IMG/VR virus record: IMGVR_UViG_3300012948_000003
Location: 32,001 to 96,000 of that record
Strand: one strand, 5' to 3'
From: a virus
DNA length: 64,000 nucleotides
The translations under genes were made by a program, and so were the position numbers. Positions within the stretch are counted from its first letter, which is position 1, and the number at the start of each line of letters is the position of its first letter. Below are positions 6,001 through 61,020 of the stretch, in pieces. The notes beneath the pieces were generated by a model that saw only the letters and a list, made by a program, of their open reading frames with translations, was not told where the DNA came from and did not search any database.

Positions 6001-9000
6001 TTTCCGCCAGCCCGGAATCATAGGAGCGTTCTCGCCCAGTTCACCATGACGTTGCTCAGCGAAAGCATCCTGTTGCTCTTTGGGCGTCATCGCCTTCGCT
6101 GGTGCTTCCGCTGGCTTCGGTGCTCCGACGAAGGCAGGGATACCTTTCTCGATCAGCTCTTCGCCGGGTATTACTGGCGGAGCTGGCGGAGGCAATGTTA
6201 CCGCTGGTGCTCTTGCTGCCGCCTCTGCCTCTTCGGCTGTCGGCTCACCTCGACCTCTGAATTCTTCTGGCTCCTCCCAGCCTTCGGGCAGCGGTCGTTC
6301 CGGTACTTCATATGATCGCGGAGTAAAGCCCAACGAAGCCATACGAGCCCTGTAGTCTTCCGGTGATTCACCCGCGAGACGGTACCCGGCAGTTGACACA
6401 CGTCGTTCAGGACCCGCGTAAGGTGCAGGAACCGTTTCGGGTCCTTGTATTACTTGAGGAGCTGCTGGCGTAGGCTCTTCCCATGCTCCGTACTGCTGAC
6501 GAAGATGTTCGAGCTGCTCCGGTGTTGCTACTGGTTCTTCCGGTGGAGGCACTGCGGGAACTTCTTCCGGAGCTGGCGCACGACGACCCGCTTCGAGTTC
6601 TTCTCTGCTACGCCATCGGACTTGATAGCCAGTTATGTAGTTTGGTACTGCGCCTCTTCTGGTGGTTCGCGTGACGATCTCGCCTCTAGCGCCTTCTGGC
6701 AGATTCGCTAGGAACCTTTCAGCTGATTCTCTGCTGTTGCGTCCATAGACAGGACTCATTCTGTAATCCGGGCGCACGTCGGTCACATCTGAGATATCAT
6801 AGCTTCGTAGGGTTCCGTCTTCACCGATTACCTGTACCTTACTTCCTCTTCGTCTGACTACTTGTAGCGGCTCACCAGTGCCTCTTGTAGTTCTTCCAGT
6901 GTAGTAGACGACCTGCCCTTGTAATGCTGGAGTAGGAGTCTTGATTCTCTCTGGTCCTACGAGCGCTACTGGAATATCCGGACGACCCGGAGACCTCCAG
7001 ACATTATCTTCTCTCTGATACGGATACCATTTGCCTCCCACTTCTATGAAGGTGGTCGGCGTTGGAACTGGCGAGACGAATGGTTCACGGGCTCCCGGAA
7101 GCTCTTCGCCCGGTAGAGGTCTCGCTTCGAAACCTCTCTCTGCTACTTCAGGAGGAGCTGGAGCTGGCGGAGGTGGACCTGTCGGTGGCATTATTCCACG
7201 ACCGCGCATGATGTGATGCAGCTCTTCGAGATTCAGCGGCGGAGTATCATCAGGCAATGAATGAAAGACCTGTCGCTCGACATCATGCAATGGTCGTCCG
7301 AACTGTTCTCGTTCGAGATTCTCCGCTTCCGCATGTGCGCGTTCTTCTGCTCGTGCTCGATGCCATGCTGGAGTCGCTACTTGTAGACGTGCCGTACCGG
7401 GAACTACTTCGAAGCCGCGACCAGCTTCTTCAGCTGCACGGGGTCCACGTATCCTTGCCTCTTCCGCTCGGAACGCATCAGCGAGTTGCTGCTTTCTCTC
7501 GATTGGAAGCGCTGCCGCTTCTGCTGGCGTAATTCCTTGCCCGGCGAGAAACTCATTGAGCCGATTCCTCAGCCTTAGCTGTGCGGCAGACGGAGGTCCG
7601 ACTCCCGGTTCTGGAACACCGTACGCCGCAAAGCCCGGACCTTGTATTGGAGCTTGCTCAGCTATTGCCCTGCCTCGCTCACGGGCTTCATAAGCGGGAC
7701 CATGTGGGCCAGCTAATGCTTCAGTACCGTACATTAGGATGGCGTTCATCAGAGCCTGACGTTGACCTTCCGGCGTTGATAGATCAGGTAATCGACCTGA
7801 TACGATTGCTTGTGGAAGTTCAAATCCTCCGGTTGCTAATGCACCTCGTGCCGCTAATCCTCTTATTCCTCCCCACGGTACTTCGCTGGTAAGAGCGCCT
7901 GCGAGTTTCGCCCCGGCAGCGGTCGTTATACCATGCATGACCGCTTCTCTGTACGGCAGTCCCTGACCGAGAGCTTGCGTAAAGCTCATAATGCCAAGTC
8001 CGACGTTACCACCTCCAGCAGCGAACAACGGAATCAGCTCCGCAGCTGCACCAGCTACTTGTTCTGGTGTAAGCGGACCGGGCTGAGGAGCGCCGGGTCC
8101 TGTTGCTCCGACTTCCTGCCACGCTCGACCTGCCGTGCCCAATGCTCGACCTAACGGAGCAAGCGGTCTCATCTGAGAATACCCCAGCCGAGCATCCTCT
8201 AATAATCTCCCTGCGCCAGACAGCATAGCTCCGCCACCGCGACCCATCGCACCACCTATAAGCTCCAACGGCCAATCTAGTACATCTCCGCCTCTTGCCG
8301 CCAATTGCTCTATGTATGGTAATGCTGCTCGACGTCGTTGCTCTGCTGCGGCAGCAGCTTCCTGCGCCTGTCGCGCTTGCGTTGCTTGCTGTTCTGCGGC
8401 TAGCCATTGCTCACGGCGAGCGGCGATTGCTTCCGGCGTCATCTCGGGCGCACCAGCAGCAGCCATTCGACGAAGCGTTCTGCTTATCGGTTGGGTTACA
8501 CCACTCAGTGCTTGAACTGCTTGAAGCGCAGTCTGATATTCAGGAGATGTTAAGAGCTTTCGAACATCAGGAGGGAGCTTTTGGAGGGAGGTAGGAATCT
8601 TAAAAGGTTTCTTCGGGGCAGTTATCGACGGCCATTGTATTCCGGTGTTAGGATCAGTATCATATCGTACAGAGTAACCCCACTCCTGCTTGAGTTGATC
8701 GGCAACATTCGCTGCACCTTCGAGATCGCCTCGGGCTTTTAAGCTCTCGAAGTTCTGCGCTACGAGTTCGTCGGGACGTGGTTTCCATGCTGGAGCAGGA
8801 GCTGCTGGCGGAGGTGCAACAGGCGGAGCCGCTGGCGGAGCAGCGCCTTCATCCGGTAAGGCATCAGGGCTGATAGACCCCATTGCCGCGACATGTACAT
8901 GATTAGAATGTTTACCTATAGCACCTACCGATTGACCGCCTCGCCATCCACCAACAGGATCGTGATACAGTTCTGCCAGATTCGGACCGTAAGTATCCCG

Positions 9001-9270
9001 GAGATGCTCGGTGAATGCTCTCATCGACTCGGGCGCACCTGTAAAGTCCCAGCCCTCACCAGCGACGTGCATCGAACCCGGTCTACCACCTACGGCGCGA
9101 TTATGCGCAGGCGTACGCTTTGCCGACGAGAGAGTCAGACCATAACCCTGAGCTTCTCGCGTCAGCGTCTCTTGAGGATTAGCCCCGAGGTCTGCCCACT
9201 GCGGCAAGTCCTCTGGATTAATCGGCGCTAATGCCTGCGGGTTTTGTTGGAATTGTGATGGGTCTTCCAT
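1..9270 (-). CDS. Giant polyvalent virion/ejection protein (>3090 aa, 3' end outside window): N-terminal M15-like peptidase, HhH-GPD/DUF7178-like domain, zincin metallopeptidase, two ART-PolyVal-like ADP-ribosyltransferase domains
   Basis: ATG at 9270 (MEDPSQFQQNPQ). No closed ORF in this frame appears in the track and hand-translated blocks are open, so it runs off position 1. Motifs: SAKRTPAHNRAVGGRPGSMHVAGEGWDF..HSNHVHV (~8890-9130); SPKQGSYILNRWGEFGPITKDLWYAR..EVQERMWDAER (~4400-4700); HEGTH (3844-3858); AHHGS..GKGIYFG..ARYYG..NPL..GHDAII..EMLIFNRNQI (~2220-2690); DGSPKVLQHVT..HFGT..NVMPVYLSMKNPL..GYDGIVYLN..SYIAFDPKQIKSATGN (~990-1610). Confidence 0.88.
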   Translation of the reverse strand, partial: MEDPSQFQQNPQALAPINPEDLPQWADLGANPQETLTREAQGYGLTLSSAKRTPAHNRAVGGRPGSMHVAGEGWDFTGAPESMRAFTEHLRDTYGPNLAELYHDPVGGWRGGQSVGAIGKHSNHVHVAAMGSISPDALPDEGAAPPAAPPVAPPPAAPAPAWKPRPDELVAQNFESLKARGDLEGAANVADQLKQEWGYSVRYDTDPNTGIQWPSITAPKKPFKIPTSLQKLPPDVRKLLTSPEYQTALQAVQALSGVTQPISRTLRRMAAAGAPEMTPEAIAARREQWLAAEQQATQARQAQEAAAAAEQRRRAALPYIEQLAARGGDVLDWPLELIGGAMGRGGGAMLSGAGRLLEDARLGYSQMRPLAPLGRALGTAGRAWQEVGATGPGAPQPGPLTPEQVAGAAAELIPLFAAGGGNVGLGIMSFTQALGQGLPYREAVMHGITTAAGAKLAGALTSEVPWGGIRGLAARGALATGGFELPQAIVSGRLPDLSTPEGQRQALMNAILMYGTEALAGPHGPAYEARERGRAIAEQAPIQGPGFAAYGVPEPGVGPPSAAQLRLRNRLNEFLAGQGITPAEAAALPIERKQQLADAFRAEEARIRGPRAAEEAGRGFEVVPGTARLQVATPAWHRARAEERAHAEAENLEREQFGRPLHDVERQVFHSLPDDTPPLNLEELHHIMRGRGIMPPTGPPPPAPAPPEVAERGFEARPLPGEELPGAREPFVSPVPTPTTFIEVGGKWYPYQREDNVWRSPGRPDIPVALVGPERIKTPTPALQGQVVYYTGRTTRGTGEPLQVVRRRGSKVQVIGEDGTLRSYDISDVTDVRPDYRMSPVYGRNSRESAERFLANLPEGARGEIVTRTTRRGAVPNYITGYQVRWRSREELEAGRRAPAPEEVPAVPPPEEPVATPEQLEHLRQQYGAWEEPTPAAPQVIQGPETVPAPYAGPERRVSTAGYRLAGESPEDYRARMASLGFTPRSYEVPERPLPEGWEEPEEFRGRGEPTAEEAEAAARAPAVTLPPPAPPVIPGEELIEKGIPAFVGAPKPAEAPAKAMTPKEQQDAFAEQRHGELGENAPMIPGWRKDWGNVTAIGRLPNGETLVRDEQGRSHWTARGKNLDLPRVEWADIGIEGPAFFSPEKFKSIMDSINVGRRDAGQPEYPTDWEQLLANYPDVAKEHFPEAYKRAQQELRDDEGNILFMKHFRPVMPERDSQWAEVEEPEPDIEPPLLQIERFLRGEPPFPVVGTGRAKQALKKSKEWLGAYGARRPVVTRGMNLNTPSGQRRAIEAIVKHTLAEIRAWRRIARDYVPFYSTDITERTNPLLQKWAEGRYDRQLTDPEISFLHMLSAYASGAQPPGMDTAYGMRAFDEYVRTGTATGLGGLKPVYDYYTRTRQKADWIPTEWVPRREAGLKFDPVTGKEIRQPVYIDAATGKKTFIRKGNEELRHPTKRAKLTKAFNIRSLNRFNELLTTRFDGDLGAAIDWMATKHPWSEIVDMIGKDAAKKIKKHEYLDKVNPSFGVFALGDSSPKQGSYILNRWGEFGPITKDLWYARTMARYFGRPISDQPWGGKLNQENIKMRRLADEAWRQVARQLRIKPAEVQERMWDAERVAYAALGHSEARGLGYTSQGVPVGERLINQDDLERDLPGYLAGEPSEPPLLSLNSTSDRALDDRDVTSRRISVKFAQRRQAEESPRPGRIRRAFLNDAAGRVLGTIMDVQEADGASMKRDGYGKLAYELGKTIQFFDLPPSSPLYTLYRDLVDAYQKNEPAYEIVSPYTGTEPGMEGAKGLRAFITTIRHEGTHSAMTVLRNSFPRLEDRERVASFTNALFGFEKEDINDLTHDELAALKMDMILAAKGYDNDPIVRAMEVIGHVGGGSRNLAEPTAPPNFRLSLDEQARLVKHVIRTLNEHYGDAAESVLQRAALEVRQENRRFYEEKRARLQTESATERGYANLEPGGSTAATEGGPPRSVQPTGVEPYPGVSGSPPPIAGGVPTRRGQRGRGGVPQAEQLELPFESREFPQDHGATEPAYPYGKSPLEADLEEMERNEQEELNQFYEDNPQLAKRFGGKVLPGRAKFLKKRLEDKLASLSPEDLKELDNQYLLTFDRYADQRYKEGYRGGVDRLKEEYVRKYGELVPINTGRSHRSVGRNLVEETLDQLTPKTRKLSLVPKPGEEPELSRRFPDEQILEAHHGSDDDTLTPENLEEREPGYPGSLGKGIYFGQDEDTARYYGRHVVSTQVRVRNPLIIDPEEVLQTVNGKLSPRLNIIDETPEGMFVDPIANTQTLPFDVYSHNGNKYEVRDSNDLQGLRDWAESEGHDAIIMRNMRPGPREEMLIFNRNQIVHPTEDEPLLSKKVKAFKTTAPFRRIGQVPADVEERRTQFWRDYHTTTPDRRKMLDDAIEEISKVILPTRKPGHDLEDTIDTVKSILASHENPIGSLAKGLEGAQAGRMTPEATAAVDYLKDAYDSVRGEHPFLLKEFPQEAQRQLKLALIAHPDEKEGTLLAKRFPKKKEERLKLGPFMREVPMGAEALGTPLEKFTEGNYEGLKEPDGSPKVLQHVTNEDFHTFDTKGRRADTDEIGTHFGTQNQVNDLAETMMLKQGRKGIEGEGTNVMPVYLSMKNPLRMVDNGNFRPEEIIPQLYDAGLISDREHDKLLDRVYAKTGIGGAVHQRLNEKLRKIITDSGYDGIVYLNRREGVNRDLMAAFMFGNRMTDADFKKRWPTAEDSYIAFDPKQIKSATGNIGTYDPSEENVLLSRAFPERPSKIEVREGEIGMGIEPRLQAIMIGGLYKGNLPRTMVKEGLQNAVDALRRMDFKEGERGHIELTVNTANRMIRIQDNGTGMPPDVVKNQFVNIGGTWGKEQGASGGLGIAIAALMGNAEKADVRTVYRDPETGKYHESIVTSLHRDDRPAYMQWSRPMEGGLKFETRVLDKPEPTGTLLRLQVREPFQEAENTKFQMEETGTNGLATQAAEFLARHRLPYDFDMNINGKQITAEDARHPDNIPVKLIRSMTVPGADIEIYGSDEMSPQYLGRVQVLNNGLPQFVKEISLPTNEAVMLPNRIMVDVHAHKNPEEDPTNYPF
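1810..1823. repeat. Palindrome TTCTTTTAAAAGAA copy 1 (inside giant ORF)
   Basis: Exact match. Confidence 0.9.
3216..3449 (-). CDS. Small helical protein nested out of frame inside the giant ORF
   Basis: 77-aa ORF preceded by GGAGG-TTTT-ATG; protein-like composition while the host frame becomes G/P/R-rich low complexity. Confidence 0.5.
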   Translation of the reverse strand: MKRRGRVYRPNPLRKEDMQILSREEVQQRLKEDLPDLFNQPESSLTPESLDRLHRLLEAYRQGGDSAVEEEYRRQNS

Positions 9271-9287
9271 TTTCTTTTAAAAGAAAA
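9270..9287. repeat. Palindrome copy 2 (18-bp form, fills the TAA-ATG gap)
   Basis: TTTTCTTTTAAAAGAAAA. Confidence 0.95.
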
Positions 9288-10958
9288 TTATTGTTGAACT
9301 GGCACAGGCACGAGCTGTCCATTTGCTCCGGGCCTGAAGACCACTACAAGCGTCTTCCCCGTGTTAGGATCACGGTAGAGGTGAGGCTGTCCATCACCCG
9401 CATTCTGGCGCGTTGCTGGCGTTGGTTGAGCTGCGCCTTGAGGTGCGCCTTGCGCTCCGCCTTTCGGTGGAGTTGGTGCGGCTTTTTGTAATTCGTTTAA
9501 TTTAGCGGCTCGATCCGCTTTCTGTCTCGCAATCTCGGCTTGAATCCTCCCTTCTAACTCTTGCTCCTGCTGCTCCTTTGTCGGACCGCCAGTCTTCGAT
9601 TTATCGCGGAATCCTAGCAGCGGAGGCTTCAAGTCTTTTCGATCTCGGACCTGTTTCTCAATCTTCGCATCGGAGTTCGCTTCATTAAAAGCCGCCACTC
9701 TATTCTGATGCGCTATCTGCGCGTCATGGTATCGTTGCTGCTCCGCAAGACTCGCCCCGGCACGTTGAGCCTTTCCTGCCTCAGCTGCCGCAGCGCGTTG
9801 TGTTTTTCCTGCTTCAACCGTTTTCTGAGCCGAGACAAGCGGTTTACCTTCATCGTCGGTTGCTAGTTCGCCCGATGTCACATCTCTAAAGTTGAAGTTT
9901 TCATCAACCTTAATAGCGCCGTTTATGAACTTCCGGCGAAGCCTACCCGGAATACCTAATTGAGCTGCGGCATACTCCAGCTGTTCCGGAGTAGTTAGCA
10001 TCCCGGCATTGTAGTCCGCTCTGATCGAATGCTTTCGATCTCTTTCATTCATCTGATCCCAGCGAGCGATCCTTGCTTTAGTCTGTTCTTCCGTTATATC
10101 GACCTTTCTCTCTGCGAGTCGCTGTTGCTGTTGCTTCAACAATTCGTAGTATTGCTGCTGTTCGGTCTTCGGAGTCATCAGACCTGTTATCGGATCGACT
10201 CCGGTCAGTTGTGCTATGTGCGCAGCGTTAGCAAGACGAGCATTTCTTATCTGCTGCTCCGCTGCTGCTGGTCCTGCGTGGTACTGAGCTTGCTGATTAT
10301 ACCAAGCTCTCGTGGTCATATTCGGATCGACAGCTCCGAGAATAGCGCCACCAATATTACCGAGCGCAAGACCCTTCAACGCTCCCATCAAGTGACCCTT
10401 AAAACCATGTACTGGTTCTGGCGTATGCGAGATCGCATCTAGATAGCGCTGCGTTAACGGACCCACTCCGGTAGCCTGTCGGACAGCTGCAAGCTGAGCA
10501 AGAGTCTCTGGCGGTAACGGTGAACCCCACGGCGTAGTCTGCCTGCCCATTAGACCATACTGAAGACGTGCTCGCGCTAAATCGTTCTCGTCATGAATTC
10601 CATAAGCACCGTAATCAAGCGGTGCTGGAGGAGTTCCGATATCAGGCATGGGAACAGTAGTAGGCATACCAGTAGGAGCGCCACCGATATTCATAGCAGC
10701 AGGGAATGCTGGCAGAGCTGGAGGACCTGCTTCGCCCGATGCTGCTTTAGCTCGCATTCCTACTTCTTCAGGCGATAGGGCTCCGCTAGCCAGCGCAGCT
10801 TTAACCCCCATCCCCACTTCTGGCGCTGCTGGCGCTGGAGCTATTGCTCGTTGATCGGGCTCTGGTTCTGGCGTATAGGTTGCCGCAAGGTCAGCGCCCG
10901 GCTCGTAGGCTTGCGCTAGCGCAGCCAGTGTGTATGGATTTAAGGTAGGAGGTGTCAT
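9288..10958 (-). CDS. Probable internal virion/ejection protein
   Basis: 556 aa, A/Q/P-rich with coiled-coil stretches, directly upstream of the giant protein. Confidence 0.55.
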   Translation of the reverse strand: MTPPTLNPYTLAALAQAYEPGADLAATYTPEPEPDQRAIAPAPAAPEVGMGVKAALASGALSPEEVGMRAKAASGEAGPPALPAFPAAMNIGGAPTGMPTTVPMPDIGTPPAPLDYGAYGIHDENDLARARLQYGLMGRQTTPWGSPLPPETLAQLAAVRQATGVGPLTQRYLDAISHTPEPVHGFKGHLMGALKGLALGNIGGAILGAVDPNMTTRAWYNQQAQYHAGPAAAEQQIRNARLANAAHIAQLTGVDPITGLMTPKTEQQQYYELLKQQQQRLAERKVDITEEQTKARIARWDQMNERDRKHSIRADYNAGMLTTPEQLEYAAAQLGIPGRLRRKFINGAIKVDENFNFRDVTSGELATDDEGKPLVSAQKTVEAGKTQRAAAAEAGKAQRAGASLAEQQRYHDAQIAHQNRVAAFNEANSDAKIEKQVRDRKDLKPPLLGFRDKSKTGGPTKEQQEQELEGRIQAEIARQKADRAAKLNELQKAAPTPPKGGAQGAPQGAAQPTPATRQNAGDGQPHLYRDPNTGKTLVVVFRPGANGQLVPVPVQQ

Positions 10959-10959
10959 C

Positions 10960-13293
10960 TTACACTCCTTGCGGTCGTGTATAGTAATCCGGAATGGTGA
11001 ATCCGAATTCCTTCGCCCGTTCCTGTAAGAGCGTTAGGTCCTGCTTCATGTTTTCGGTATCGTAAGCTAAGCGGTAGACGTCATCCATGTCTTTGTCTTG
11101 AAAACCGGACTGCACAGGATGATCGTGATAGACCACTGCGTCCTCAGCCCAAATGTATCTGCTGATCATCTTGCAGCGTTCTGTCAGTTCGTTGTCACAT
11201 CCGAGATGCTTGTAGCCAGTATGAAAGAACTCACCACCTAGCATCGGCAGGAGCTTCTTTGATGCAAGCCAGTGCGTTGCAAATTCTCCGTGCCAGTACT
11301 TGTCGTTCAATCCAACTAGTCCATCCATATCAGGGAAGTTCTTAATCATCGCCTTCAGTGCATTCAGTAAGAAGTTCGGTCGCGGAACGCAGTCATTACC
11401 GAGAAACATCACAAGGCTTCCCGTGGAACGATCAACGCCGCGCTTGAGCATCTTCGGTGCGCCTTGACGATCTTCGAAGGAATCATTCTCCACTAAGACT
11501 TCGTAATTTGGGTAGCCTGCGTGAGTATCGATCAGTTTCGCGAGACGCTTGAGTTTCTCTGGACGTCCGAGCGTAGGGATTACGATTGATATCTTCGGAC
11601 CGCATACACAGACGAGATACTGGAATTCGTTCATCACCCGTCTGATTCTATCTGATTGCTGACAGAAGAATACCGGGTCCTCCCAGTATTGCTTTATTAG
11701 ATTCTTTGCTTCTTGTTCTGTGTAAACAACGTGATGAAACTCGGACGGCATATTCAACGGGATTGATGCAATAAACAGCTTCGAGTTCCTTGATGCCCAA
11801 ATAAGAAAAGGTCTCGGATCATGTAGGTGTTCGATTGTTTCAAAACTGACGACCGCATCAACCTGACAACTGTCCGGGAGACCCTGTTCGAGATCGGCAA
11901 TCCAGTAGCCGGGACCATACTTTTCCTCGGCAACCTTAATCGCTACAGGCTCTATATCGCATCCTTGATATTCGCTCGCAGCCAGAATCGTCTTTCCGTA
12001 GCCATCACCAGAAGCCGCATCAAGCACCTTTAACCCCGAGGTGAACGACGCGGCAAAGTTATATCGTGCAAGATGCTCAGTCTCGACATCTTCAAGAGGT
12101 GTCTTGCCCGGAATATAGCGCTCACCAGTCCATTCCAGCTCGGTCGGATAGAACCACTTCTTTTCAGAGAGATACTTCGGATTGTTCGGCTGATAAGCAA
12201 GCGCTTGATCGTAATGGAGCTTTGCGCCTTCCTTATCTCCGAGACGCCAGAGCGCCCAGTACAACATCTCGTGCGGGATGTGTTGGTAGTGCGCGAGATT
12301 GTTCGCATAGAACCCGTGCCACTTTACTGTTAATGCGGCTGAGGCGTATGCCGCTGTCTTTTGAAAGTCGTCTTTTCTCCACCAGTACTCCGCCAGCCTG
12401 ATAAGAGGCTCACGCCGGGTCCCGTCAGTATCGAAAGCACGGTGATACCAAACAAGCGCTTCCTTCTCTCGTTCCAACATTATCAGCGCGTCACCGATGT
12501 AGATCATGCTCTGCGCTTGTTCCGGGACCCAGCGATTCATTGCAATGTGTCGTGAGAATTCCTTGATCGCTGAGAGTGGTCGCTTGCTCCAAAGTAGCTC
12601 GCGAGCAAAGTAATGACTATTACGGTCCTTCTCTGGATTCAAATGACAATCAAGCGCGAGCCCGGCGAGATATCGTCCCCTACGCTCAGAGGGTTCCTGA
12701 AAGTGCTCTAAGAGAACCTCGTTCGTCGGCAAGAATGCAGTCTTTCCTTCGCCAGCTAGAACTTCATGCACGATCCCGGCCCAGTGAAACTTTCGGCGAT
12801 CATAGCACTTTGAGTGAGTAAATCTTATCGCTGGATTACCATACTGATCATGCGAGAATATGAAGTCGTACTCCAGACGCTCAGCGCCTTCCTTGAAGGC
12901 TTTTACTATTGGTAATAGATGAAAGTTAGTGAATGCTTCATCGCAGTCTGGCATCCAGACGATATCATTCGATGCCAATCCTGCCGCATAGTTACGCGCA
13001 GCTGAATAATCGAAGAGCTGAGTTCCTTCGTGTACTATTTCTTCTTCTGGCTCAACTATGCACGTCTGATTAATAGATGCAGCGAGATCGGCATCTATCG
13101 TTGTAATAAACTTCTCGCCAACTTCGTCAACAACGCAACCCAGCCCGGTCGCTACTGCAACAGTATCGTCGGTGGACCCGGTATCCACCAGAACTACCTC
13201 TCCGCCTAAGACGCGGAATTCCTCCAGCGATGCTAGTAATCGCGGGAGCGTCTGTGATTCATTCCGGGCAATAAGAACTATCGAGAAATTCAT
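10960..13293 (-). CDS. Multidomain glycosyltransferase: GT2 + TPR + SAM methyltransferase + GT2
   Basis: LIARNE..VDTGSTD..ARN..PDCDE..VHE (GT2/TPR type); HLARY..VLDAASGDGYG..SFETIEH (methyltransferase); IVIPTLGR..FLGNDC..CDNEL (second GT2). Confidence 0.88.
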   Translation of the reverse strand: MNFSIVLIARNESQTLPRLLASLEEFRVLGGEVVLVDTGSTDDTVAVATGLGCVVDEVGEKFITTIDADLAASINQTCIVEPEEEIVHEGTQLFDYSAARNYAAGLASNDIVWMPDCDEAFTNFHLLPIVKAFKEGAERLEYDFIFSHDQYGNPAIRFTHSKCYDRRKFHWAGIVHEVLAGEGKTAFLPTNEVLLEHFQEPSERRGRYLAGLALDCHLNPEKDRNSHYFARELLWSKRPLSAIKEFSRHIAMNRWVPEQAQSMIYIGDALIMLEREKEALVWYHRAFDTDGTRREPLIRLAEYWWRKDDFQKTAAYASAALTVKWHGFYANNLAHYQHIPHEMLYWALWRLGDKEGAKLHYDQALAYQPNNPKYLSEKKWFYPTELEWTGERYIPGKTPLEDVETEHLARYNFAASFTSGLKVLDAASGDGYGKTILAASEYQGCDIEPVAIKVAEEKYGPGYWIADLEQGLPDSCQVDAVVSFETIEHLHDPRPFLIWASRNSKLFIASIPLNMPSEFHHVVYTEQEAKNLIKQYWEDPVFFCQQSDRIRRVMNEFQYLVCVCGPKISIVIPTLGRPEKLKRLAKLIDTHAGYPNYEVLVENDSFEDRQGAPKMLKRGVDRSTGSLVMFLGNDCVPRPNFLLNALKAMIKNFPDMDGLVGLNDKYWHGEFATHWLASKKLLPMLGGEFFHTGYKHLGCDNELTERCKMISRYIWAEDAVVYHDHPVQSGFQDKDMDDVYRLAYDTENMKQDLTLLQERAKEFGFTIPDYYTRPQGV

Positions 13294-30323: not shown

Positions 30324-31583
30324 CTACGCAAACGCGATTGCCGGGCTCGGAAGATTGGTGATGTCAGTGTTGGTAATAACCCAGTGACATCCGAATCTCG
30401 TTGCCCCGAGGTCGTACTTACAGCCAATGAACCCGGTCCATTGATCGTAGTACGTGCCGCCAGAGGTATACATTCTGGTCGTCAAACCGTCCTCAGCGTA
30501 TGCGCCGAATTTCTTCAGCTCATACACATTGATTTCGGCTGGATTGATCCCGTAGGTTCGATCCGGATCGATTGAAACGTAATCCTCCCATGCGAGGTCG
30601 CCAAACTGAACGTCCTTGAAATCCATGCGAAGGACCCCGCCTCCGCCTTCGTAACGAAGCAGGTTGTAGCCATTGCTCATGAAGCCTGCCTTGTTGGTCG
30701 GCGAAGAAAGGATCGTTGTGTTGCCTGCCTGCTCGGTCCTGTAACGGAGCGAGTAGTGAATCTCAACGAGCAGCGCAACCTGAAGACGCTGAGTTGTGGC
30801 GTTCAGCACGACAGCTTTGAGATAAGGTCTGTTCGAACGAAGCTGACCCTGAATCTCGCCGCTATCATTGTTTACGATATCAGTCAACCCGTGCGGAGCT
30901 TTTAGTGCGGAGTTCTCGTAAACGATGTAATCACCGCTCTGCCACGCGGCGTTCACTGTATCGCAAGTTACAACATTGGTGGAGCGGTTGTTGCCGCCCG
31001 GATCGGCGACTACCGAAGTACCCGCTCGGGCAACGCCAGTGGTCGGGTTAACCGCATTCAGACGAGCACCTTCTTTGATCTTGAAAGACCCAAAGGTTGA
31101 TCCGCCTGTTACGGTTGTGGAGCACGTGAAGTTGCCGTTGGAGCCCGAGGTCGGCGCTCCAGAGATGTACGCAATCGCACCAGTGCGCGTACCCGCGATC
31201 TGGAAATCGAGCGTCTTCTTCGCAGCTTCGGTCTGAAGCAAGAAGAGATCGCTGATTTTGTCGATCAACGCATCACCGCTGATATTATTGAATACATCAC
31301 CGCTGATTAAGAAGGATGTCGCATACCGAGCTGGGAACACCCGCATGTCGTTGAACTGTGGATTGTCCGCAGTTGGGAATGCGCCACCTTCACCCATGTA
31401 TCCGTCTGACGCCGGGGGACGGTCGTAGAACGGGATACGGTAACCCCGTTGATTCACTTCTATTGGTTTGCCCTTATAGAAGCGATTGTACAGTGTGTGA
31501 GCCTGCTCGAACTGTTGCTCGATCTCAGGATTCACTGCTGTACGGACAACGGCTTCAAACTGACTGAATACCATTTCGGCCAT
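30324..31583 (-). CDS. Major capsid protein (419 aa)
   Basis: Follows scaffold; AAGGAG before ATG 31583; GEGGAFPTA..PHGLTDIV..HWVITN pattern of HK97-fold capsids. Confidence 0.85.
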   Translation of the reverse strand: MAEMVFSQFEAVVRTAVNPEIEQQFEQAHTLYNRFYKGKPIEVNQRGYRIPFYDRPPASDGYMGEGGAFPTADNPQFNDMRVFPARYATSFLISGDVFNNISGDALIDKISDLFLLQTEAAKKTLDFQIAGTRTGAIAYISGAPTSGSNGNFTCSTTVTGGSTFGSFKIKEGARLNAVNPTTGVARAGTSVVADPGGNNRSTNVVTCDTVNAAWQSGDYIVYENSALKAPHGLTDIVNNDSGEIQGQLRSNRPYLKAVVLNATTQRLQVALLVEIHYSLRYRTEQAGNTTILSSPTNKAGFMSNGYNLLRYEGGGGVLRMDFKDVQFGDLAWEDYVSIDPDRTYGINPAEINVYELKKFGAYAEDGLTTRMYTSGGTYYDQWTGFIGCKYDLGATRFGCHWVITNTDITNLPSPAIAFA

Positions 31584-31602
31584 GATCCGTATCTCCTTAT
31601 AC

Positions 31603-33132
31603 CTAGAAACGGGGCAGACCCGGCATACCGCGATTCTGCGCTTCACGTAGTCGCGCTCGGACCGCATCGCGGGTCGCCTGAATATCTCCCGATGGAGCCG
31701 GAGGACGGTTCGTAACCGGAGGTATTGCCGTACCACCTGTTATCTCGCGCCTGCCGTGTTGTAAGTCCTTTGTCTTCTGGTCCTGCCTTTGCGTTGTCCT
31801 TCGAATCGGACCGAGTAATCGATCAGCTGCTTGCGATATCGCTTGAGCGCGATAGTTGGTGACCACCGTGAGCGCATCGAGACCCGACTTGTCCCAGCGA
31901 TCTCGATCTCTCGGGTCCTTCGCAGCTGCCGCTTGCTTGAACCACTTTTCAGCTCTCGCTGTAGCGTTTTTGTAATCCGGGTTAGCTTCCAAAGCAGCCT
32001 TAGCGATAGTCTTTATGTCGCCCAGCAATCCCGGTCGGTCCTTCGGAATGGCATTTCCATAGCGAGTTTGGATATCGGAATCCAGCGAAGACTCTAGTTG
32101 CTCATTGAGGCGAGTTGCAGCTCGACGTTGAGCATCTTCGGACGACTGATCCCGTAATCCTTCCTGATCTTGATTGATTCGACTAACTTCGTTTTGCAAG
32201 CGCTGAATCTGCATGTCACGCTGCGCTAGTTCGCGCTGCCGCTGCGTCTGTTCAGCCTGTCGTTGCTGCTGAGCCATCTGCGTCTGATAGATTATTTGCT
32301 GATGACCAGCGTCAGTTAGATCGAGTCCATACTGATCCGCTATTGCTTCAGCGGTCTGGACACCTTGCGGCTGTCCGTAGCCGGGCTGCTGATAGCCCTG
32401 CTGAAAACCCGGCTGCTGCTGCCCTTGCGGTGGCATTGGTCCTTGCGCACCGCTCAAGCGAGCAATGATGACCGACTGAAGGTCTGGAGAGTTCTCCAGA
32501 ATGGTTAGCACATCGTAGAGGGAATCGCCGTCGAGCTGACCTCTGGTCATTCGACGCGCCAATGAATCCCACACGACGCCTAAGCTCTCCAGCTTTTCAT
32601 TATCAGCTGGAAGATTCGGATCAAGCGGAACACCTTCGAGAGAACGAACCTGATCGCCGATATCAGACCAGAAGTGAGTATCCATTACGTCAGCGGCAAC
32701 TGACTCATAGTACTCAGGCTCCTCTTCGGCCATCTTGATGAAGCTCTCTCGCGGATTGAAATCATCCAACGGGATATCAGTCGTGATGTAAACGCCCCTG
32801 TCCTGTGCTGCACGAAACGTTTGCATCTCTTGCTGGATCGCGTCTCGTGCTCGCACTGCCTCATCCCGTTCGAACTTGACCTTGTCGTACGAACTACGAA
32901 ACTGTCGAAGGTTCTCGGGTTGAGTTAGGTCTAGCTGTGTTACGTCCGTTTCCGGAGCTGGCGCTTGCGCGGTTTCTTGTGTTTGGGGTTGCTGCCCCGC
33001 TTCCCCAGCGCCTTCCGCTGGTGACTGCTCTGGTTCGACCGATGAATCAGGTTGAGCGACTTCCCCGCTGCTCGCGGCAGCTACATCTTCAACACCAGTT
33101 GATGTTCCGGTGTCACCTAGCATAGAACTCAT
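31603..33132 (-). CDS. Probable capsid scaffolding protein
   Basis: Acidic disordered N-terminus, coiled coil, basic C-terminal helix; directly upstream of capsid. Confidence 0.7.
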   Translation of the reverse strand: MSSMLGDTGTSTGVEDVAAASSGEVAQPDSSVEPEQSPAEGAGEAGQQPQTQETAQAPAPETDVTQLDLTQPENLRQFRSSYDKVKFERDEAVRARDAIQQEMQTFRAAQDRGVYITTDIPLDDFNPRESFIKMAEEEPEYYESVAADVMDTHFWSDIGDQVRSLEGVPLDPNLPADNEKLESLGVVWDSLARRMTRGQLDGDSLYDVLTILENSPDLQSVIIARLSGAQGPMPPQGQQQPGFQQGYQQPGYGQPQGVQTAEAIADQYGLDLTDAGHQQIIYQTQMAQQQRQAEQTQRQRELAQRDMQIQRLQNEVSRINQDQEGLRDQSSEDAQRRAATRLNEQLESSLDSDIQTRYGNAIPKDRPGLLGDIKTIAKAALEANPDYKNATARAEKWFKQAAAAKDPRDRDRWDKSGLDALTVVTNYRAQAISQAADRLLGPIRRTTQRQDQKTKDLQHGRREITGGTAIPPVTNRPPAPSGDIQATRDAVRARLREAQNRGMPGLPRF

Positions 33133-46656: not shown

Positions 46657-48279
46657 CTACCCCCGTAGCTTCTGCATAAAGTGTTGTTGGTTGCTGCGCT
46701 GCAATCGCTTCATGTTAGTTGCGAGCCAGTACTGTTGACTGTTCGCCGCCATAGGGTGTGGATTCTTGTCGATATTATCGAACTGCAATGATTCGTCGAG
46801 CATTCTCATTGCTTGTATTTTTAGTGGCAGAGCCTCCTTGCTCATGTAACGCCGGGCTCTGTACCAACCTTCCGCCAAACTCATAACGCAATCATCGTGC
46901 TCGCCTTCGGGAGCAGCGTACCGGAACCGCCCTGACGGGAGTCGTTCCATTCCGAAGACCTCAAGCTCCTGTAGGAGCTGCGGCTCGCGTGGAATGGTTA
47001 TGTCTGTGCGTTCGAAGGCGAGCACTAACGCCTGAATCGCCTCTTCCTTCGATGCATTCGTTGCAGTGAATTCACTGATGGGTAGATTAGCTCTGTGGGT
47101 CACGCCAACGGAGCTGAGCAACCTCGCTACTGCTGCGGCTGCTTCCTCTGCTTCTTCTTTGGTATATAGGCCAATACGAACTCCGTCTTCGATAGTCGGC
47201 ATCTTGATGCTTTTCGGAGCCGGGCCAATCTTGTTATAGGACGTCTGCAATAACATCTCGATGAGAGCTTCATTCGCATTCGTCTCCACTACTACTTCTG
47301 TCGGTTGAAAGGCTTCAGCGAGCGCAACTAGCCGGGGAACTTGCAACAAATAGTTTACTTGATTAAAGCGATCTATCTTGACGATTGTTTTTGTAGTGCA
47401 GTCGATCACTGTCATTACGCTGAAGTCCTCTTTCTTTGCGAGGTCCCAGCTAATAACGTAGACATGATATGGATCGAGTTTATCGCGCCAGACTGCTTCC
47501 TTCTCGCGAGTACAGGCAGCGATGTTACGGAACACCGCGCCACCGTCTTCGAGAAACTCGGCAAGATATTCTTGTCTGAAAACTGAATCGGGATACCGGG
47601 CTTGCGCTCCGAGTATCTCGTCGTACGGGATATACGGGTTAGCGCTGGTCGGCATCTGCCAGCTCATCCATTCCTTCTGCGCTGCGTCCTGCCCCTTCAA
47701 CCAGAGCCGATAGAAAGCGCCTTTACCGGAAGGCGTTGACGCGAACCATGCATCCCCACGGAGATCAATGAGGGTTGGCGCAATAGCATAATCAAAGACC
47801 TGTTCGAGATTCTGTATGAGGGCTGCTTCGTCGATTGCAACGCGTTTGTACTTTCGGGAGCGTCCTGCTTTGTAACGCTTCCTACCTGTGCCGCCGCCTT
47901 CGTTGTCAAGCGACCACGCTTCGATTATTCCTCCAGTGTATAGCTCGATGCGGTGCTCTGAGTCATTGCTCGTTTTAATCAGCGGCTCGACTATTTCTTT
48001 GATGTCGCGCCAACCCTCAAGGAGGAATTTGTATGTTGGAGCGAAGTAGCCTGCCGGGTATCCTGCTTCAGCTACTTCCGCTAGTGCATCACCGAGAAAG
48101 ATGCTCTTGCCGAATCGCCGACCGCAGTCAAGCACATTGAAGCGCTTTGCTTCGGCTTTGATCTGTTTTTGTGCTGGATGTAAGTTAAGTCGTCTGGAGT
48201 AGACAGGCGTCTTGCCTATCGCCGCGAAGGCTGCTAAGTGAGACTGTAAAATAGAATACGCACCTTGTAGACTAGCCAC
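46657..48279 (-). CDS. terL: Terminase large subunit
   Basis: CGRRFGKS (Walker A), VAIDEAA (Walker B), [32 protein letters not shown]. Confidence 0.95.
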
Positions 48280-58461: not shown

Positions 58462-58879
58462 GCGTCGTAATAGTTCCCCAGCTTCAATGTCTCGATTGCA
58501 AGACCGATCAGCATCAGTCTCTGATCATTATCCATTGGATTCATCGGAGACAGCATTAATGCGCTCTTTCCGGCAAGCTGAGCAGCAACGCGCATCACTC
58601 GATCAGTGAGGCGATCCTCTTCTTCTCGATGCTGCTGAAGCTCCTTCTCAGCTAAGTTCTCTGCGTACTTGTCGATGTCCACGACTCATTGCCTCGCGAA
58701 TGTATTCGTCCATTACTTCGATCTGTATTTGACGAGCTTCGCTGCATTCACTACAGAGACCCGGATACTGCGGCGATATCAATCCGTTGATCAATCGTGC
58801 CATTCCTCGTATATGCTTCCACGGGTGTTCGTGCTGCGGTAACGGATCAGCATGCCTCTGTCCTGATGAAAGATAATAC

Positions 58880-59014
58880 TTAGTCACGCTTGATCAGTCT
58901 CCAAAGTCTTTCAAGGATCGAGCGTTTGCGAACGAGATAGAAACACAAATCAGTAACGATGAATACCGGGACAAACCCGATGGCAAACGATATCCAAAAG
59001 TGTTTCCAGTCCAT
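58880..59014 (-). CDS. 44-aa membrane peptide (below ORF-track cutoff)
   Basis: MDWKHFWISFAIGFVPVFIVTDLCFYLVRKR..; ATG abuts palindrome. Confidence 0.45.
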   Translation of the reverse strand: MDWKHFWISFAIGFVPVFIVTDLCFYLVRKRSILERLWRLIKRD

Positions 59015-59015
59015 T

Positions 59016-59029
59016 TTCTTTTAAAAGAA
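59016..59029. repeat. Palindrome copy 12
   Basis: Core, contains a stop codon. Confidence 0.95.
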
Positions 59030-59309: not shown

Positions 59310-59924
59310 TTATTCCTTGTTGCCGTTTGTAGGCTTAATCACAAGGTCCTCGCCTCGAAGCAGCTTTACGTCTTCAGCCGGAATACCAAGCTGAATCATA
59401 TGCGCCAGAGCTACCTTTAGCTCCCAGCCATTATTTAAGAGTTCTTGGGCCATCATAGTAACTGCTACTCGCTTCTGCTCTGTTACATCAATTACTATCG
59501 GTGCGCCATTCAATCCAGTCAGCTCATTGCGTTGAGTTATGCGATAGGTCTCCGGGATGTGAGCTTCGAGCATTCGTATTGTAAGCTGTGTCTCGTGCTG
59601 AGTTGTCTTCGCGACGCTTGTGATATTGCCTTTGTTATCGTAGAACTCCCGGACAGATTCAGTTCCATTCACTGCTCGCTCATATGCTGATGCTTGTAGT
59701 TTCTCCTTTGCTGCGTTGTATGCATTCTCGATCATCTCTGCGAATGCAGGATCGTTCTGAAGATATCTGTAATAGGTTTGCCGACTGATGCCAACCTTTC
59801 TGCAAGCCGCTGTTGGACTCAATGTGCGCTCGTATTCCTCTGCAACAATCTCTTGCCAATTGTCACAAAGGATCGGTCCCTTCGGAAGACTGACCCGACC
59901 GTTTCCATTTGGATGACTACTCAT
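59310..59924 (-). CDS. terS: Terminase small subunit
   Basis: HTH TAACRKVGISRQTYYRY..DPAFAE..A.ERAVNG..L.IRMLEAH.PE.Y..ELTG.NGAPI. Confidence 0.85.
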   Translation of the reverse strand: MSSHPNGNGRVSLPKGPILCDNWQEIVAEEYERTLSPTAACRKVGISRQTYYRYLQNDPAFAEMIENAYNAAKEKLQASAYERAVNGTESVREFYDNKGNITSVAKTTQHETQLTIRMLEAHIPETYRITQRNELTGLNGAPIVIDVTEQKRVAVTMMAQELLNNGWELKVALAHMIQLGIPAEDVKLLRGEDLVIKPTNGNKE

Positions 59925-60261
59925 GTACGCTCGCGTTGGGAAGTCTAAGAAGGGAACTGTAAGTCTGATAACTCTCAAAGCTCAGACCTTCTCCCGGATT
60001 CCTATAGACTGGAACTCTATAACCTCTGCTACTGATCTTTACTTCGCCGTCTCGTAAGAAGGCTTGATAGAGAGTTGCGTGTCGTTCGAACTGCTCTACA
60101 ATGGCCGGGTTGATCACTTTGCTTATAACCGCTTCGATCTCGTTGAGACAGAGACTGACAGTAGGCTCAGGCTTGAAGATACGAACGAAGGGCATTGCTG
60201 GCGCTATTGCAATCCCAGCCAGTCCTGCTCCTAATGTTCGAAGGAAATTACGCCTGTTCAT
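59917..60261 (-). CDS. Twin-arginine-signal protein carrying a capsid N-terminus homolog
   Basis: MNRRNFLRTLGAGLAGIAIAP, then a segment 20/51 identical to this phage's capsid residues 6-56. Confidence 0.75.
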   Translation of the reverse strand: MNRRNFLRTLGAGLAGIAIAPAMPFVRIFKPEPTVSLCLNEIEAVISKVINPAIVEQFERHATLYQAFLRDGEVKISSRGYRVPVYRNPGEGLSFESYQTYSSLLRLPNASVHE

Positions 60262-60384
60262 CTTTACTTCGCCAATGTCCTCAAGTCTTCAACCTTCTTA
60301 AGGCAGTCATCGCAGAGCGCTTTATATCGTTCGCCTGCGTGGCAATGAGTAAGAATAGGACAATCGTACGTTGCCCCGCATTGC

Positions 60385-60843
60385 TCACATTGGTGCTGAT
60401 GAAGACCGCTCTGCATCGTAGTGGCTCCGCTGCAACATCGATCTACCTATTAAAGGCTCTGGTAAGACTCCGCCTTCATCGAAGGGCGCTGCTAAGTCAG
60501 GGAAACATAATACTGCTTTCCTTACTCGAACGCAGAGAATGCAACCGCATTCCTCCGGTGATAGACATTCAAGAGTTTCTAGCTCATCTCCAGACCAGCG
60601 AATCCCTACTGCGAATCGTTGATTAACTTCGCCGTCCTGATTAAGTATCTTAGCGAAGACCCATGCCTGTGCGAGATCAGTGTAATAACTATTACTGTCT
60701 TTACGAAGAGTAACATGAATAGTATCCATCGGACCGCGAATGGTCCAAATGTTAAACTCTTCGCCAACCTCCGGAGGTCGCGGTAAGAGATTGAAAGCAT
60801 CTTCTACGTGCTTCTGTATCACGTCAAAACTATTGTTCGACAT
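60385..60843 (-). CDS. Hypothetical protein
   Basis: ORF track. Confidence 0.5.
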   Translation of the reverse strand: MSNNSFDVIQKHVEDAFNLLPRPPEVGEEFNIWTIRGPMDTIHVTLRKDSNSYYTDLAQAWVFAKILNQDGEVNQRFAVGIRWSGDELETLECLSPEECGCILCVRVRKAVLCFPDLAAPFDEGGVLPEPLIGRSMLQRSHYDAERSSSAPM

Positions 60844-61002: not shown

Positions 61003-61020
61003 TTTTCTTTTAAAAGAAAA
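61003..61020. repeat. Palindrome copy 13 (inside an ORF, read as FSFKRK)
   Basis: 18-bp form. Confidence 0.95.

What the first reader, a model, noticed from the sequence alone, without database searches (positions are those of the whole stretch)
59917..60261. Tat-signal protein carrying a diverged copy of the phage's own capsid N-terminus
Seen: after MNRRNFL plus a hydrophobic helix, LNEIEAVISKVINPAIVEQFERHATLYQAFLRDGEVKISSRGYRVPVYRNP aligns without gaps to capsid FSQFEAVVRTAVNPEIEQQFEQAHTLYNRFYKGKPIEVNQRGYRIPFYDRP (20/51 identical), encoded ~28 kb away. Known: several defence systems sense capsid protein (e.g. CapRel, Lit). Inference: a membrane-targeted capsid mimic acting as immune decoy, as an assembly anchor, or as a dominant-negative against competing phages.
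Basis: partly seen in the sequence, partly recalled or inferred. Interest (0 to 1): 0.7.

Follow-up and report, generated by a model that had tools for sequence, protein, structure and literature searches.

The report
Exported small protein copying capsid N-arm
A 104-kb uncultured phage encodes, just ahead of its small terminase gene, a 114-residue protein that joins a twin-arginine (Tat) export signal to an old, still-conserved copy of the first ~55 residues of its own major capsid protein; a few other phages have the same rare design and nothing like it has been described.

Summary
ORF 59917-60261(-) encodes 114 aa: MNRRNFLR plus a 14-residue Gly/Ala-rich stretch (above the TIGR01409 cut-off, below Pfam's), a Pro-rich linker, then residues 37-89. 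These align to capsid residues 4-56 (gene 30324-31583(-), 28 kb away) at BLASTP E 4e-14, z=20 against shuffles.

It is not a relic. Small homologues in the metagenome protein libraries keep the same layout: three clearly (one a three-sequence cluster), two weakly. The signal is the best-conserved part. The copy keeps all ten invariant module positions. Third codon positions are random, so the duplication is old and selected at protein level.

The gene is wedged between a Zn-ribbon ORF and TerS, with an ATGAGTAG overlap. The same module also occurs without a signal: fused to an 'HPW-CxxC' domain (two metagenome proteins, and beside TerS in a 104-kb relative) and in a Cys-rich 86-aa protein.

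P0002 is no closer to its own capsid than to other capsids, so tracking is not shown.

Function is inferred only. Most likely it is Tat-exported and acts outside the cytoplasm as an N-arm-shaped binding module. The decoy, anchor and dominant-negative roles are untested. No described family or paper matches. This scan had noted the same stretch once before.

The parts
59917..60261 (-). Whole gene (114 aa, P0002): Tat signal + Pro-rich linker + capsid N-arm module + short tail
60196..60261 (-). Residues 1-22: twin-arginine signal. MNRRNFLR, then the Gly/Ala-rich stretch TLGAGLAGIAIAPA
   Evidence: TIGR01409 at 19.1/20.8 bits against a cut-off of 16.7. PF10518 at 18.1 bits, below 22.7. N2 R3 R4 F6 are invariant in 5 family members. 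The uncharged stretches are 13-19 residues long with mean Kyte-Doolittle 1.4-2.0.
60154..60195 (-). Residues 23-36: Pro-rich linker (MPFVRIFKPEPTVS)
   Evidence: Proline-rich in all family members. Resembles the WPFRxxFxP motif of other phage Tat-signal proteins.
59995..60153 (-). Residues 37-89: copy of the capsid N-terminal module (two predicted helices, then the RGYRVPVY strand)
   Evidence: BLASTP E 4e-14 and z=20. Keeps E, P, I, F, L, F, G-Y-R-x-P, which are invariant in alignment A3. Predicted helices 39-61 and 63-71, from a low-confidence model.
59917..59994 (-). Residues 90-114 plus the TAG stop: tail that weakly resembles the start of the HPW-CxxC domain of signal-less relatives. The last 8 nt (ATGAGTAG) overlap the TerS start.
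   Evidence: The P0009 alignment runs through SYTQLMR / TYSSLLR. Junction sequence.
30324..31583 (-). Major capsid protein gene (419 aa), source of the copied module
   Evidence: phrog_14242 and NF033394; homologues P0008 and P0027-P0034
31416..31574 (-). Capsid residues 4-56: the N-arm module that P0002 copies
   Evidence: Predicted helices 2-15 and 19-36, from a low-confidence model.
31603..33132 (-). Candidate scaffolding protein (509 aa) directly upstream of the capsid gene. Acidic/Q-rich, with coiled-coil-like stretches and a basic C-terminal helix followed by ...GMPGLPRF.
   Evidence: Sequence read; no family hit. The role is inferred from position and composition only.
59310..59924 (-). 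Small terminase subunit gene, translationally coupled to P0002
   Evidence: phrog_4044 at E 9e-16 and phrog_309 at E 8e-13; ATG 59924 overlaps the P0002 stop
60264..60416 (-). 50-aa Cys/His-rich (Zn-ribbon-like) ORF whose TAA lies 2 nt before the P0002 ATG
58648..58887 (-). 79-aa ORF carrying the HPW-CxxC domain. In relatives this domain is fused behind the capsid module.
   Evidence: P0009 residues 56-103 match here; alignment A6
59016..59029 (.). Palindrome TTCTTTTAAAAGAA at the downstream edge of the gene block 152-aa / 50-aa / P0002 / TerS / 95-aa
   Evidence: 15 copies in the window, 0.01 expected
61005..61018 (.). Same palindrome at the upstream edge of that block

Best explanation
Shown. 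This is a real, conserved phage gene. Its product has three parts: a twin-arginine export signal, a proline-rich tether, and an ancient paralogue of the major capsid protein's N-terminal arm (two helices and the first strand, about 55 residues). It is translated in a tight block with the small terminase. The N-arm module is a reusable unit in this phage group: it also heads signal-less small proteins next to TerS.

Inferred. The precursor is taken by the host Tat pathway across the inner membrane. The mature ~90-residue protein then works in the periplasm, either free or held by an uncleaved signal. It most likely acts as an N-arm-shaped binding module.

In HK97-fold capsids the N-arm lines the inside of the shell and is the docking site for scaffold-type helices. 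The most likely ligands outside the cytoplasm are therefore proteins that normally sit against that surface and are released into the periplasm when a related phage ejects its contents. Binding them would block, or report, superinfection. This is comparable in logic, not in sequence, to exported exclusion proteins and to the periplasmic T4 RI sensor.

The last step, the ligand and the outcome, is the weakest.
For: The gene is real, with a strong signal.
- Five homologues share the signal, linker and module; N2 R3 R4 F6 are invariant.
- TIGR01409 is passed by P0002, P0004 and P0005.
- The uncharged stretches are 13-19 residues long and only mildly hydrophobic, as in Tat signals rather than membrane anchors.
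- It is the only such signal in the genome.

The module is capsid-derived and under protein-level selection.
- E 4e-14 and z=20 against the phage's own capsid.
- P0004 matches this capsid at 57%, E 9e-19.
- P0011's module hits the N-terminus of NF033394 at E 5e-5.
- Codon-position identity is 51/64/30%.
- All invariant module positions are kept.

The Tat forms share changes at two positions that are acidic in this phage's capsid: NP[AI]I[VAT] instead of NPEIE. This fits a shifted function after the signal was gained.

Context: coupled to TerS, inside a palindrome-bounded block. Secreted and coiled-coil proteins near TerL suggest a host with a periplasm.

N-arm as docking site for scaffold helices: P22 and 80alpha structures (PMC9965877, PMC5644958).
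Against: No export, ligand or phenotype has been tested, and the host is unknown.

The Pfam TAT_signal score is below its cut-off. A signal-peptidase site (APA) is present in P0002 but not conserved in the family.

Placement in a block with TerS suggests late expression, which is a poor time for exclusion.

The signal-less relatives must act in the cytoplasm. The module's ancestral partner is therefore cytoplasmic, and the Tat form might still act before export.

The structure models are too poor to show a binding surface: pLDDT 37 and 57.

The family is tiny: 5-6 clusters among billions of proteins.
Confidence: 0.35

Rival explanations
1. Cytoplasmic-face action, close to the first reader's 'assembly anchor' or 'dominant-negative'. 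Before or instead of export, the N-arm module binds what the capsid N-arm binds: the scaffold's C-terminal helix or neighbouring capsid subunits. The Tat signal then holds that complex at the TatBC receptor. This would tether head assembly or packaging to the membrane, titrate scaffold, or carry a partner across by hitch-hiking.
For: The module keeps every invariant capsid N-arm position. The signal-less versions next to TerS (P0009, P0010, and two in G003) show the module has a cytoplasmic role in this phage group. A scaffold-like protein with a basic C-terminal helix is encoded beside the capsid gene. N-arm/scaffold docking, and competition for it by SaPI1 CpmB, are established (PMC5644958). 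The gene is coupled to TerS. From general knowledge: T4 proheads start on the inner membrane, and Tat can co-export bound partners.
Against: Conserved Tat signals normally mean full export. With the arginines at the N-terminus, the predicted topology puts the module outside. The Tat forms have lost two positions that are acidic in this phage's capsid N-arm helix region. P0002 is not specially matched to its own capsid.
Confidence: 0.2
2. Exapted fold. The helical hairpin was borrowed only as a small stable domain. The exported protein has a periplasmic job unrelated to anything that touches capsids, for example lysis control or envelope modification.
For: Other phages carry small proteins with a very similar signal and linker (MNRRNFLR...WPFRxxFxP) but unrelated C-terminal parts. 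Two of them lie in tandem just after TerL in G002. The Tat-form modules evolve faster than the capsids: 20-51% identity to each other against 48-88% among the capsids. The conserved positions are mostly hydrophobic and could simply maintain the fold.
Against: The GYRxP strand and the E of F-E-A are kept in three independent architectures. The copy starts exactly at the capsid's own N-terminus in all forms.
Confidence: 0.2
3. Immune decoy. The copy soaks up, or drags away, a host defence protein that recognises the capsid N-terminus.
For: Capsid-sensing defences exist (CapRel, Lit, PifA; general knowledge and reviews listed). The phage seems rich in counter-defence: an Acb2/Tad1 hairpin hit is present in the window.
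Against: Known capsid sensors act in the cytoplasm, whereas this protein carries a conserved export signal. No defence-related family hit. Expression alongside TerS would come at the same time as the capsid, not before it. No paper describing such a decoy was found.
Confidence: 0.08
4. Relic or mis-called start. Either this is a recombination scar with no function, or translation begins at Met23 so there is no signal.
For: One public gene call starts at Met23. There is no good Shine-Dalgarno close to ATG 60261. The tail looks like a truncated HPW-CxxC domain. The related gene in G003 carries an in-frame TAG.
Against: The first 22 residues are the most conserved part of the family. Met23 has no ribosome site either, and is absent in P0006 and P0011. 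The upstream stop 2 nt before the ATG allows coupling. Identity by codon position shows protein-level selection.
Confidence: 0.07

Closest known systems
SaPI capsid-redirecting proteins CpmB (scaffold mimic) and Ccm (capsid homologue) (PMC5644958, PMC8569155)
   Same: Small or accessory proteins derived from, or imitating, a head-assembly component. They act at the capsid N-arm / scaffold interface.
   Different: Those are cytoplasmic, encoded by satellites and have no export signal. Ccm is a full-length capsid homologue, and CpmB imitates the scaffold rather than the capsid. Here only the N-arm is copied, by the phage itself, and it is joined to a Tat signal.
T4 capsid-targeting sequences on internal proteins (general knowledge)
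   Same: An N-terminal peptide that directs a cargo to the assembling head. The signal-less relatives (module + HPW-CxxC) have that layout.
   Different: The T4 sequences are about 10 residues long and not capsid-derived. In P0002 the module is not N-terminal and the only 'cargo' is an export signal.
Exported phage exclusion and sensing proteins: Ltp lipoprotein of TP-J34 (PMC3952083), T4 RI antiholin (general knowledge)
   Same: Small phage-encoded proteins with an N-terminal export signal and a compact periplasmic or surface domain. They bind components of incoming phages or report superinfection.
   Different: No sequence similarity. Those use Sec, lipoprotein or SAR signals, not Tat. None is derived from a capsid protein. 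P0002 has no lipobox.
Twin-arginine signal peptides (TIGR01409 / PF10518), including the uncleaved Rieske/PetC anchors
   Same: N-R-R-x-F-L-R followed by a short, mildly hydrophobic stretch. Weak PetC-anchor hits for the related phage proteins in L001 and L002.
   Different: The passenger is not a cofactor enzyme but a ~90-residue capsid fragment. Cleavage versus anchoring is unknown.
Major capsid proteins of the NF033394 (capsid_maj_Podo) type
   Same: Residues 37-89 are homologous to the first ~55 residues of such capsids.
   Different: All of the HK97 body (spine helix, P and A domains) is absent, so it cannot be a shell subunit.

Membership tests
Twin-arginine (Tat) signal peptide | Consensus S/T-R-R-x-F-L-K near the N-terminus | tested here: met
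   N-R-R-N-F-L-R at residues 2-8. The same motif occurs in P0004, P0005, P0006, P0011 and P0026.
Twin-arginine (Tat) signal peptide | Curated HMM score above cut-off | tested here: inconclusive
   TIGR01409 at 19.1 and 20.8 bits is above its cut-off of 16.7. Pfam PF10518 at 18.1 bits is below its cut-off of 22.7.
Twin-arginine (Tat) signal peptide | Short, weakly hydrophobic h-region followed by a c-region with A-x-A | tested here: inconclusive
   The h-region criterion is met: 13-19 uncharged residues, mean Kyte-Doolittle 1.4-2.0. A-P-A is present in P0002 but a cleavage motif is not conserved across the family.
Twin-arginine (Tat) signal peptide | Export depends on TatABC and on the two arginines | not testable with these tools
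   Needs reporter fusions in wild-type and tat-deficient laboratory strains.
HK97-fold major capsid protein (NF033394 type) | Full fold: N-arm, E-loop, spine helix/P domain, A domain | tested here: not met
   Only capsid residues ~4-56 (up to 71 with a gap) have a counterpart; the protein ends at residue 114. It is a fragment paralogue, not a capsid protein.
i-spanin | N-terminal transmembrane helix, long periplasmic coiled coil, partner o-spanin lipoprotein gene embedded or adjacent | tested here: not met
   The hydrophobic stretch is short and Gly/Ala-rich, and no lipoprotein ORF is embedded. A better candidate lies at 49249-49746, with an N-terminal hydrophobic segment and coiled-coil hits.
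Exported lipoprotein exclusion proteins (Ltp/Llp type) | Lipobox L-[AS]-[GA]-C at the end of the signal | tested here: not met
   V-S-L-C in P0002 and P0004 has Leu at position -1 and lies after the linker. The Cys is absent in P0005, P0006 and P0011.
Capsid-targeting-sequence cargo proteins (T4 type) | Targeting peptide at the extreme N-terminus; presence in proheads; removal by the prohead protease | tested here: not met
   In P0002 the module is preceded by 36 residues of signal and linker. The signal-less relatives P0009 and P0010 do start with the module. Virion content cannot be tested here.
Decoys for capsid-sensing defence systems | Binds or inactivates a capsid sensor in the cytoplasm | not testable with these tools
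   No sequence criterion exists. The conserved export signal argues against a cytoplasmic site of action.

The most novel reading that the evidence does not exclude
The capsid N-arm is used in this phage group as a portable docking handle. The Tat-signal version uses it to pull whatever binds that handle to or through the Tat translocon. The bound partner could be a head-assembly partner, an ejected internal protein of a rival phage, or a host capsid sensor. This would be a previously unknown way of coupling a virion-derived recognition module to a host export pathway, for exclusion, counter-defence or assembly control.
Probability: 0.15. Interest if true: 0.85.

Novelty: categorically new. 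Interest (0 to 1): 0.6.

Why it matters
Phage capsid proteins are now known to be major targets of bacterial immunity, and their N-arms are the handles by which scaffolds build heads. A phage that keeps a separate, selected copy of just that handle and sends it out of the cytoplasm by the Tat pathway points to a use of capsid-derived recognition that nobody has looked for.

The same handle on signal-less proteins beside the terminase suggests a small toolkit of 'N-arm adaptor' proteins. If the ligand is found, it would give either a new exclusion or lysis-timing mechanism, a new route of counter-defence, or a new control step in head assembly.

It is also one of the very few candidate Tat substrates encoded by a tailed phage. 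The claim is directly testable with simple export reporters and pull-downs in laboratory strains.

Tried and rejected
Tracking of own capsids and dN/dS between orthologues could therefore not be done.
- Collection scans with P0002, P0004, P0005, P0011, the capsid, TerS and alignments gave only two relatives of this phage, G003 and G004. These covered viral contigs, metagenome contigs and genome contigs. One search failed for lack of conserved columns.
- GenBank phages: no match for P0002, the capsid, P0011 or P0009.
- Spurious hits set aside: P0007, a 2408-aa repeat protein whose score is a sum of six 3-8-bit pieces; L006 and L007, bacterial Tat enzymes; L020, a chance match. P0026 shares only the signal.
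- Structure: both AlphaFold models are poor (pLDDT 37 and 57), so no fold search was run. A profile search of the PDB found nothing. The Atlas look-ups gave no usable lead.
- Ideas rejected:
  - Lipoprotein: no lipobox.
  - i-spanin: a better candidate lies elsewhere.
  - TatA-like or holin role for P0002 itself.
  - TAG recoding in G003: its TerL frame is open with the standard code, so the TAG in its module gene is a true stop.
  - DNA-level element shared with the capsid 5' end: third-position identity is only 30%.
  - C-terminal parts of the L001 and L002 Tat-signal proteins copying their own capsids: no match within their genomes at E <= 1.
- Literature searches found no precedent.

Full report
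**1. The observation**

ORF 59917..60261 on the minus strand encodes 114 residues. The layout is:
- residues 1-8, MNRRNFLR;
- residues 9-22, a Gly/Ala-rich uncharged stretch;
- residues 23-36, a proline-rich linker;
- a 25-residue tail.

The capsid segment lies in the ORF listed as 30324..31736(-). The true start is ATG 31583, which has an AAGGAGA ribosome site, and homologues begin with the same MAEMVFSQ.

BLASTP gives E 4e-14. A local alignment scores 123 against 29.9 +/- 4.6 for 1000 shuffles, z = 20. No other frame of the window scores above noise.

The target is a genuine major capsid protein. It hits phrog_14242 at E 7.7e-6. It also matches NF033394 capsid_maj_Podo over its whole length at E 3.3e-8, below the cut-off.

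**2. The signal**

TIGR01409 is passed: 19.1 bits for the protein and 20.8 bits in a scan of the whole 104,444-bp virus record, where it is the only hit. Pfam's TAT_signal model scores 18.1 bits, below its cut-off.

The uncharged stretch is short and only mildly hydrophobic. That is typical of Tat signals and too short for a stable membrane anchor.

One public gene call starts at Met23 and another gives the full 114 residues. Three things favour the long form:
- the upstream 50-aa Zn-ribbon-like ORF stops 2 nt before ATG 60261;
- Met23 has no ribosome site;
- the first 22 residues are the best-conserved part of the family.

**3. It is a family, not a scar**

An exhaustive HMMER search of 1.84 billion representatives found small proteins with the same three-part layout:
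- P0004, 108 aa, 52% identical, a cluster of three near-identical sequences;
- P0006, 96 aa;
- P0011, 96 aa;
- P0005, 74 aa.

A profile search added only P0026, which shares the signal alone. N2, R3, R4 and F6 are invariant.

P0004's module matches this phage's capsid at 57% identity, E 9e-19. P0011's module instead hits the N-terminus of the general NF033394 capsid model at E 5e-5. P0011 and P0005 align to capsid residues 5-53 in the right register, but weakly.

Between P0002 and its own capsid, identity by codon position is 51%, 64% and 30%. The duplication is therefore old, and the similarity is held at the protein level. There is no shared DNA element.

P0002 keeps all ten positions (E, P, I, F, L, F, G-Y-R-x-P) that are invariant in an alignment built without it.

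**4. No sign that P0002 tracks its own capsid**

Over the 50-column module, P0002 is 38% identical to its own capsid, 34-44% to the capsids of seven relatives, and 51% to P0004. P0004, P0006 and the signal-less P0010 are 56-66% identical to the capsid of this phage.

The small-protein copies evolve faster than the capsids: 20-51% identity to each other, against 48-88% among the capsids.

The clearest Tat forms (P0002, P0004, P0006) share NP[AI]I[VAT] where this phage's capsid has NPEIE. This suggests one origin and a change of binding surface.

**5. The module is a reusable unit**

P0009 and P0010 (140 and 143 aa) begin exactly like a capsid (MA.L.FS.FEA...GYRIPFY). They continue into a different domain with HPW, LMRGE, LPH and CxxC motifs.

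In the only complete relative found, G003 (104,058 bp with terminal repeats), such a gene lies directly after TerS. It carries an in-frame TAG at a position where P0009 has Gln. G003 otherwise uses the standard code, so this TAG is a real stop.

G003 also has two further related proteins. One is a 157-aa paralogue with the HPW-CxxC domain only. The other is an 86-aa Cys-rich protein ending in the second half of the module...QKIYDR...SRGIRIPFY, at E 3e-5 against this capsid. G003 has no Tat form.

In the present phage the HPW-CxxC domain is a separate 79-aa ORF at 58648..58887. The tail of P0002 still aligns weakly with the start of that domain.

The likely history is a capsid 5' duplication, then module + HPW-CxxC, then Tat signal + module with the second domain truncated. 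The direction is inferred.

**6. Context**

The P0002 stop and the TerS start overlap in ATGAGTAG. TerS is supported by phrog_4044 at E 9e-16.

The block 152-aa / 50-aa / P0002 / TerS / 95-aa is bracketed by two copies of the genome-wide palindrome TTCTTTTAAAAGAA, at 61005 and 59016. This palindrome was also noted by earlier readers. TerL lies at 46657..48279.

Just upstream of TerL are several secreted or membrane proteins, including one with an N-terminal hydrophobic segment and a long coiled coil. They look like a lysis cluster and suggest a host with a periplasm.

Directly upstream of the capsid gene is a 509-aa acidic, Q-rich protein ending in a basic helix and ...GMPGLPRF. It is a plausible scaffold with a helix-and-hook end (role inferred).

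**7. A wider set of phage Tat-signal proteins**

Three other viral contigs encode small proteins starting MNRRNFLR/MNRRSFLR. In G001 and G002 they also carry a WPFRxxFxP motif after the hydrophobic stretch, but have unrelated C-terminal parts. In G002 two lie in tandem after TerL, at the genome end. Their C-terminal parts match nothing else in their own genomes. The capsid copy is therefore special to the P0002 subgroup.

**8. Mechanism**

In P22 and 80alpha procapsids the N-arm helix is where the scaffold's C-terminal helix docks, and SaPI1 CpmB competes for that site (PMC9965877, PMC5644958). A free N-arm is thus a natural binding handle.

Conserved Tat signals almost always mean export. I therefore rate as most likely (0.35) that the mature protein acts outside the cytoplasm as such a handle. 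Its most probable ligands are proteins that normally lie against the inside of the shell and reach the periplasm when a related phage ejects its contents. The outcome would be exclusion or superinfection sensing.

The rivals are:
- action at the cytoplasmic face, as tether, titration or hitch-hiking (0.2);
- an exapted fold with an unrelated periplasmic job (0.2);
- an immune decoy (0.08);
- a relic or a wrong start (0.07).

None of these was tested functionally. The structure models were too poor to help: pLDDT 37 and 57.

**9. Comparison with what is known**

No Pfam, PHROG, NCBIfam or PDB match exists apart from the signal and the capsid N-terminus. Literature searches returned no description of a Tat-signal capsid fragment.

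The nearest analogies are:
- satellite proteins that imitate head-assembly parts (CpmB, Ccm);
- T4 capsid-targeting peptides;
- exported exclusion or sensing proteins (Ltp, RI).

P0002 is not a member of any of these (see the membership table).

**10. Verdict**

This is a real, rare and undescribed protein architecture with conserved parts and unknown function. It is worth a bench test, which would be simple. Interest 0.6.

Noticed in passing
L012 (G003) about 8400-12940; G003 capsid gene: The capsid gene of the 104-kb relative is broken into several pieces. The gaps hold ORFs of 214-233 aa with HNH-type homing-endonuclease motifs (L012:8960-9661(-), 10644-11333(+), 12294-12938(-)). The first break falls inside the N-arm module, between ...QFEESQTL and LYNRFHKGK. 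Many public 'capsid' gene calls of this group are fragments or fusions, and one carries an AP2 domain. This looks like multiple group I introns, but splice sites were not mapped.
   Followed up: partly
L014:1231-1614(-) (G003:99635-100018): The signal-less module + HPW-CxxC gene next to TerS in G003 has an in-frame TAG exactly where P0009 has Gln (DGL*SYTQLMRGE). G003's TerL frame is open under the standard code, so this is a nonsense codon or a natural split, not recoding.
   Followed up: partly
window 58648-58887(-); L014:755-1228(-); P0009, P0010: An undescribed small domain with conserved HPW ... LMRGE..LPH.P..C..C..AF motifs, possibly a His/Cys metal site. It is found alone, behind the capsid module, or behind another N-terminal part, always near TerS. 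No family hit.
   Followed up: partly
L001:5001-5444(+); L002:4998-5339(+) and 5317-end(+): Other phages encode small proteins with nearly the same Tat-type signal and a WPFRxxFxP motif but unrelated C-terminal parts. There are weak hits to the Rieske/PetC membrane-anchor model. Two lie in tandem right after TerL at the end of a 67-kb genome. The Atlas lists viral clusters of about 98 and 146 aa as nearest by features (score 0.88, a lead only).
   Followed up: partly
window 48272-49746(-): A cluster of secreted or membrane proteins directly upstream of TerL. It contains a 165-aa protein with an N-terminal hydrophobic segment and a long coiled coil (i-spanin-like), a 144-aa ORF with an internal hydrophobic segment, and a 128-aa protein with a Sec-type signal. 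Probably the lysis region.
   Followed up: partly
window 58880-59014(-): A 44-aa ORF with one hydrophobic helix and a highly basic C-terminus, two genes after TerS and next to a palindrome copy. Holin-like in shape; no family hit.
   Followed up: no
window, 15 sites (e.g. 59016, 61005, 33225, 37048): The palindrome TTCTTTTAAAAGAA occurs 14 times exactly, plus once with one mismatch (0.01 expected). Most copies lie in gaps between genes, including both edges of the TerS block. Probably a transcription signal of this phage.
   Followed up: partly
window, among the 53 minus-strand ORFs of alignment A5 (exact ORFs not identified): Pfam hits among these ORFs include an Acb2/Tad1 hairpin domain (E 2e-5; a family of anti-CBASS/anti-Thoeris sponges), two dual-specificity phosphatase domains, Peptidase_M15_4 (likely the endolysin), Dam, DUF1653 (49759-49992) and an FkbM methyltransferase.
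   Followed up: no
window 31603-33132(-): A 509-aa protein upstream of the capsid gene. It has an acidic, low-complexity N-terminus, a Gln-rich centre and a basic C-terminal helix ending in GMPGLPRF. It is a likely scaffolding protein with a helix-and-hook end like that of phage 80alpha.
   Followed up: no
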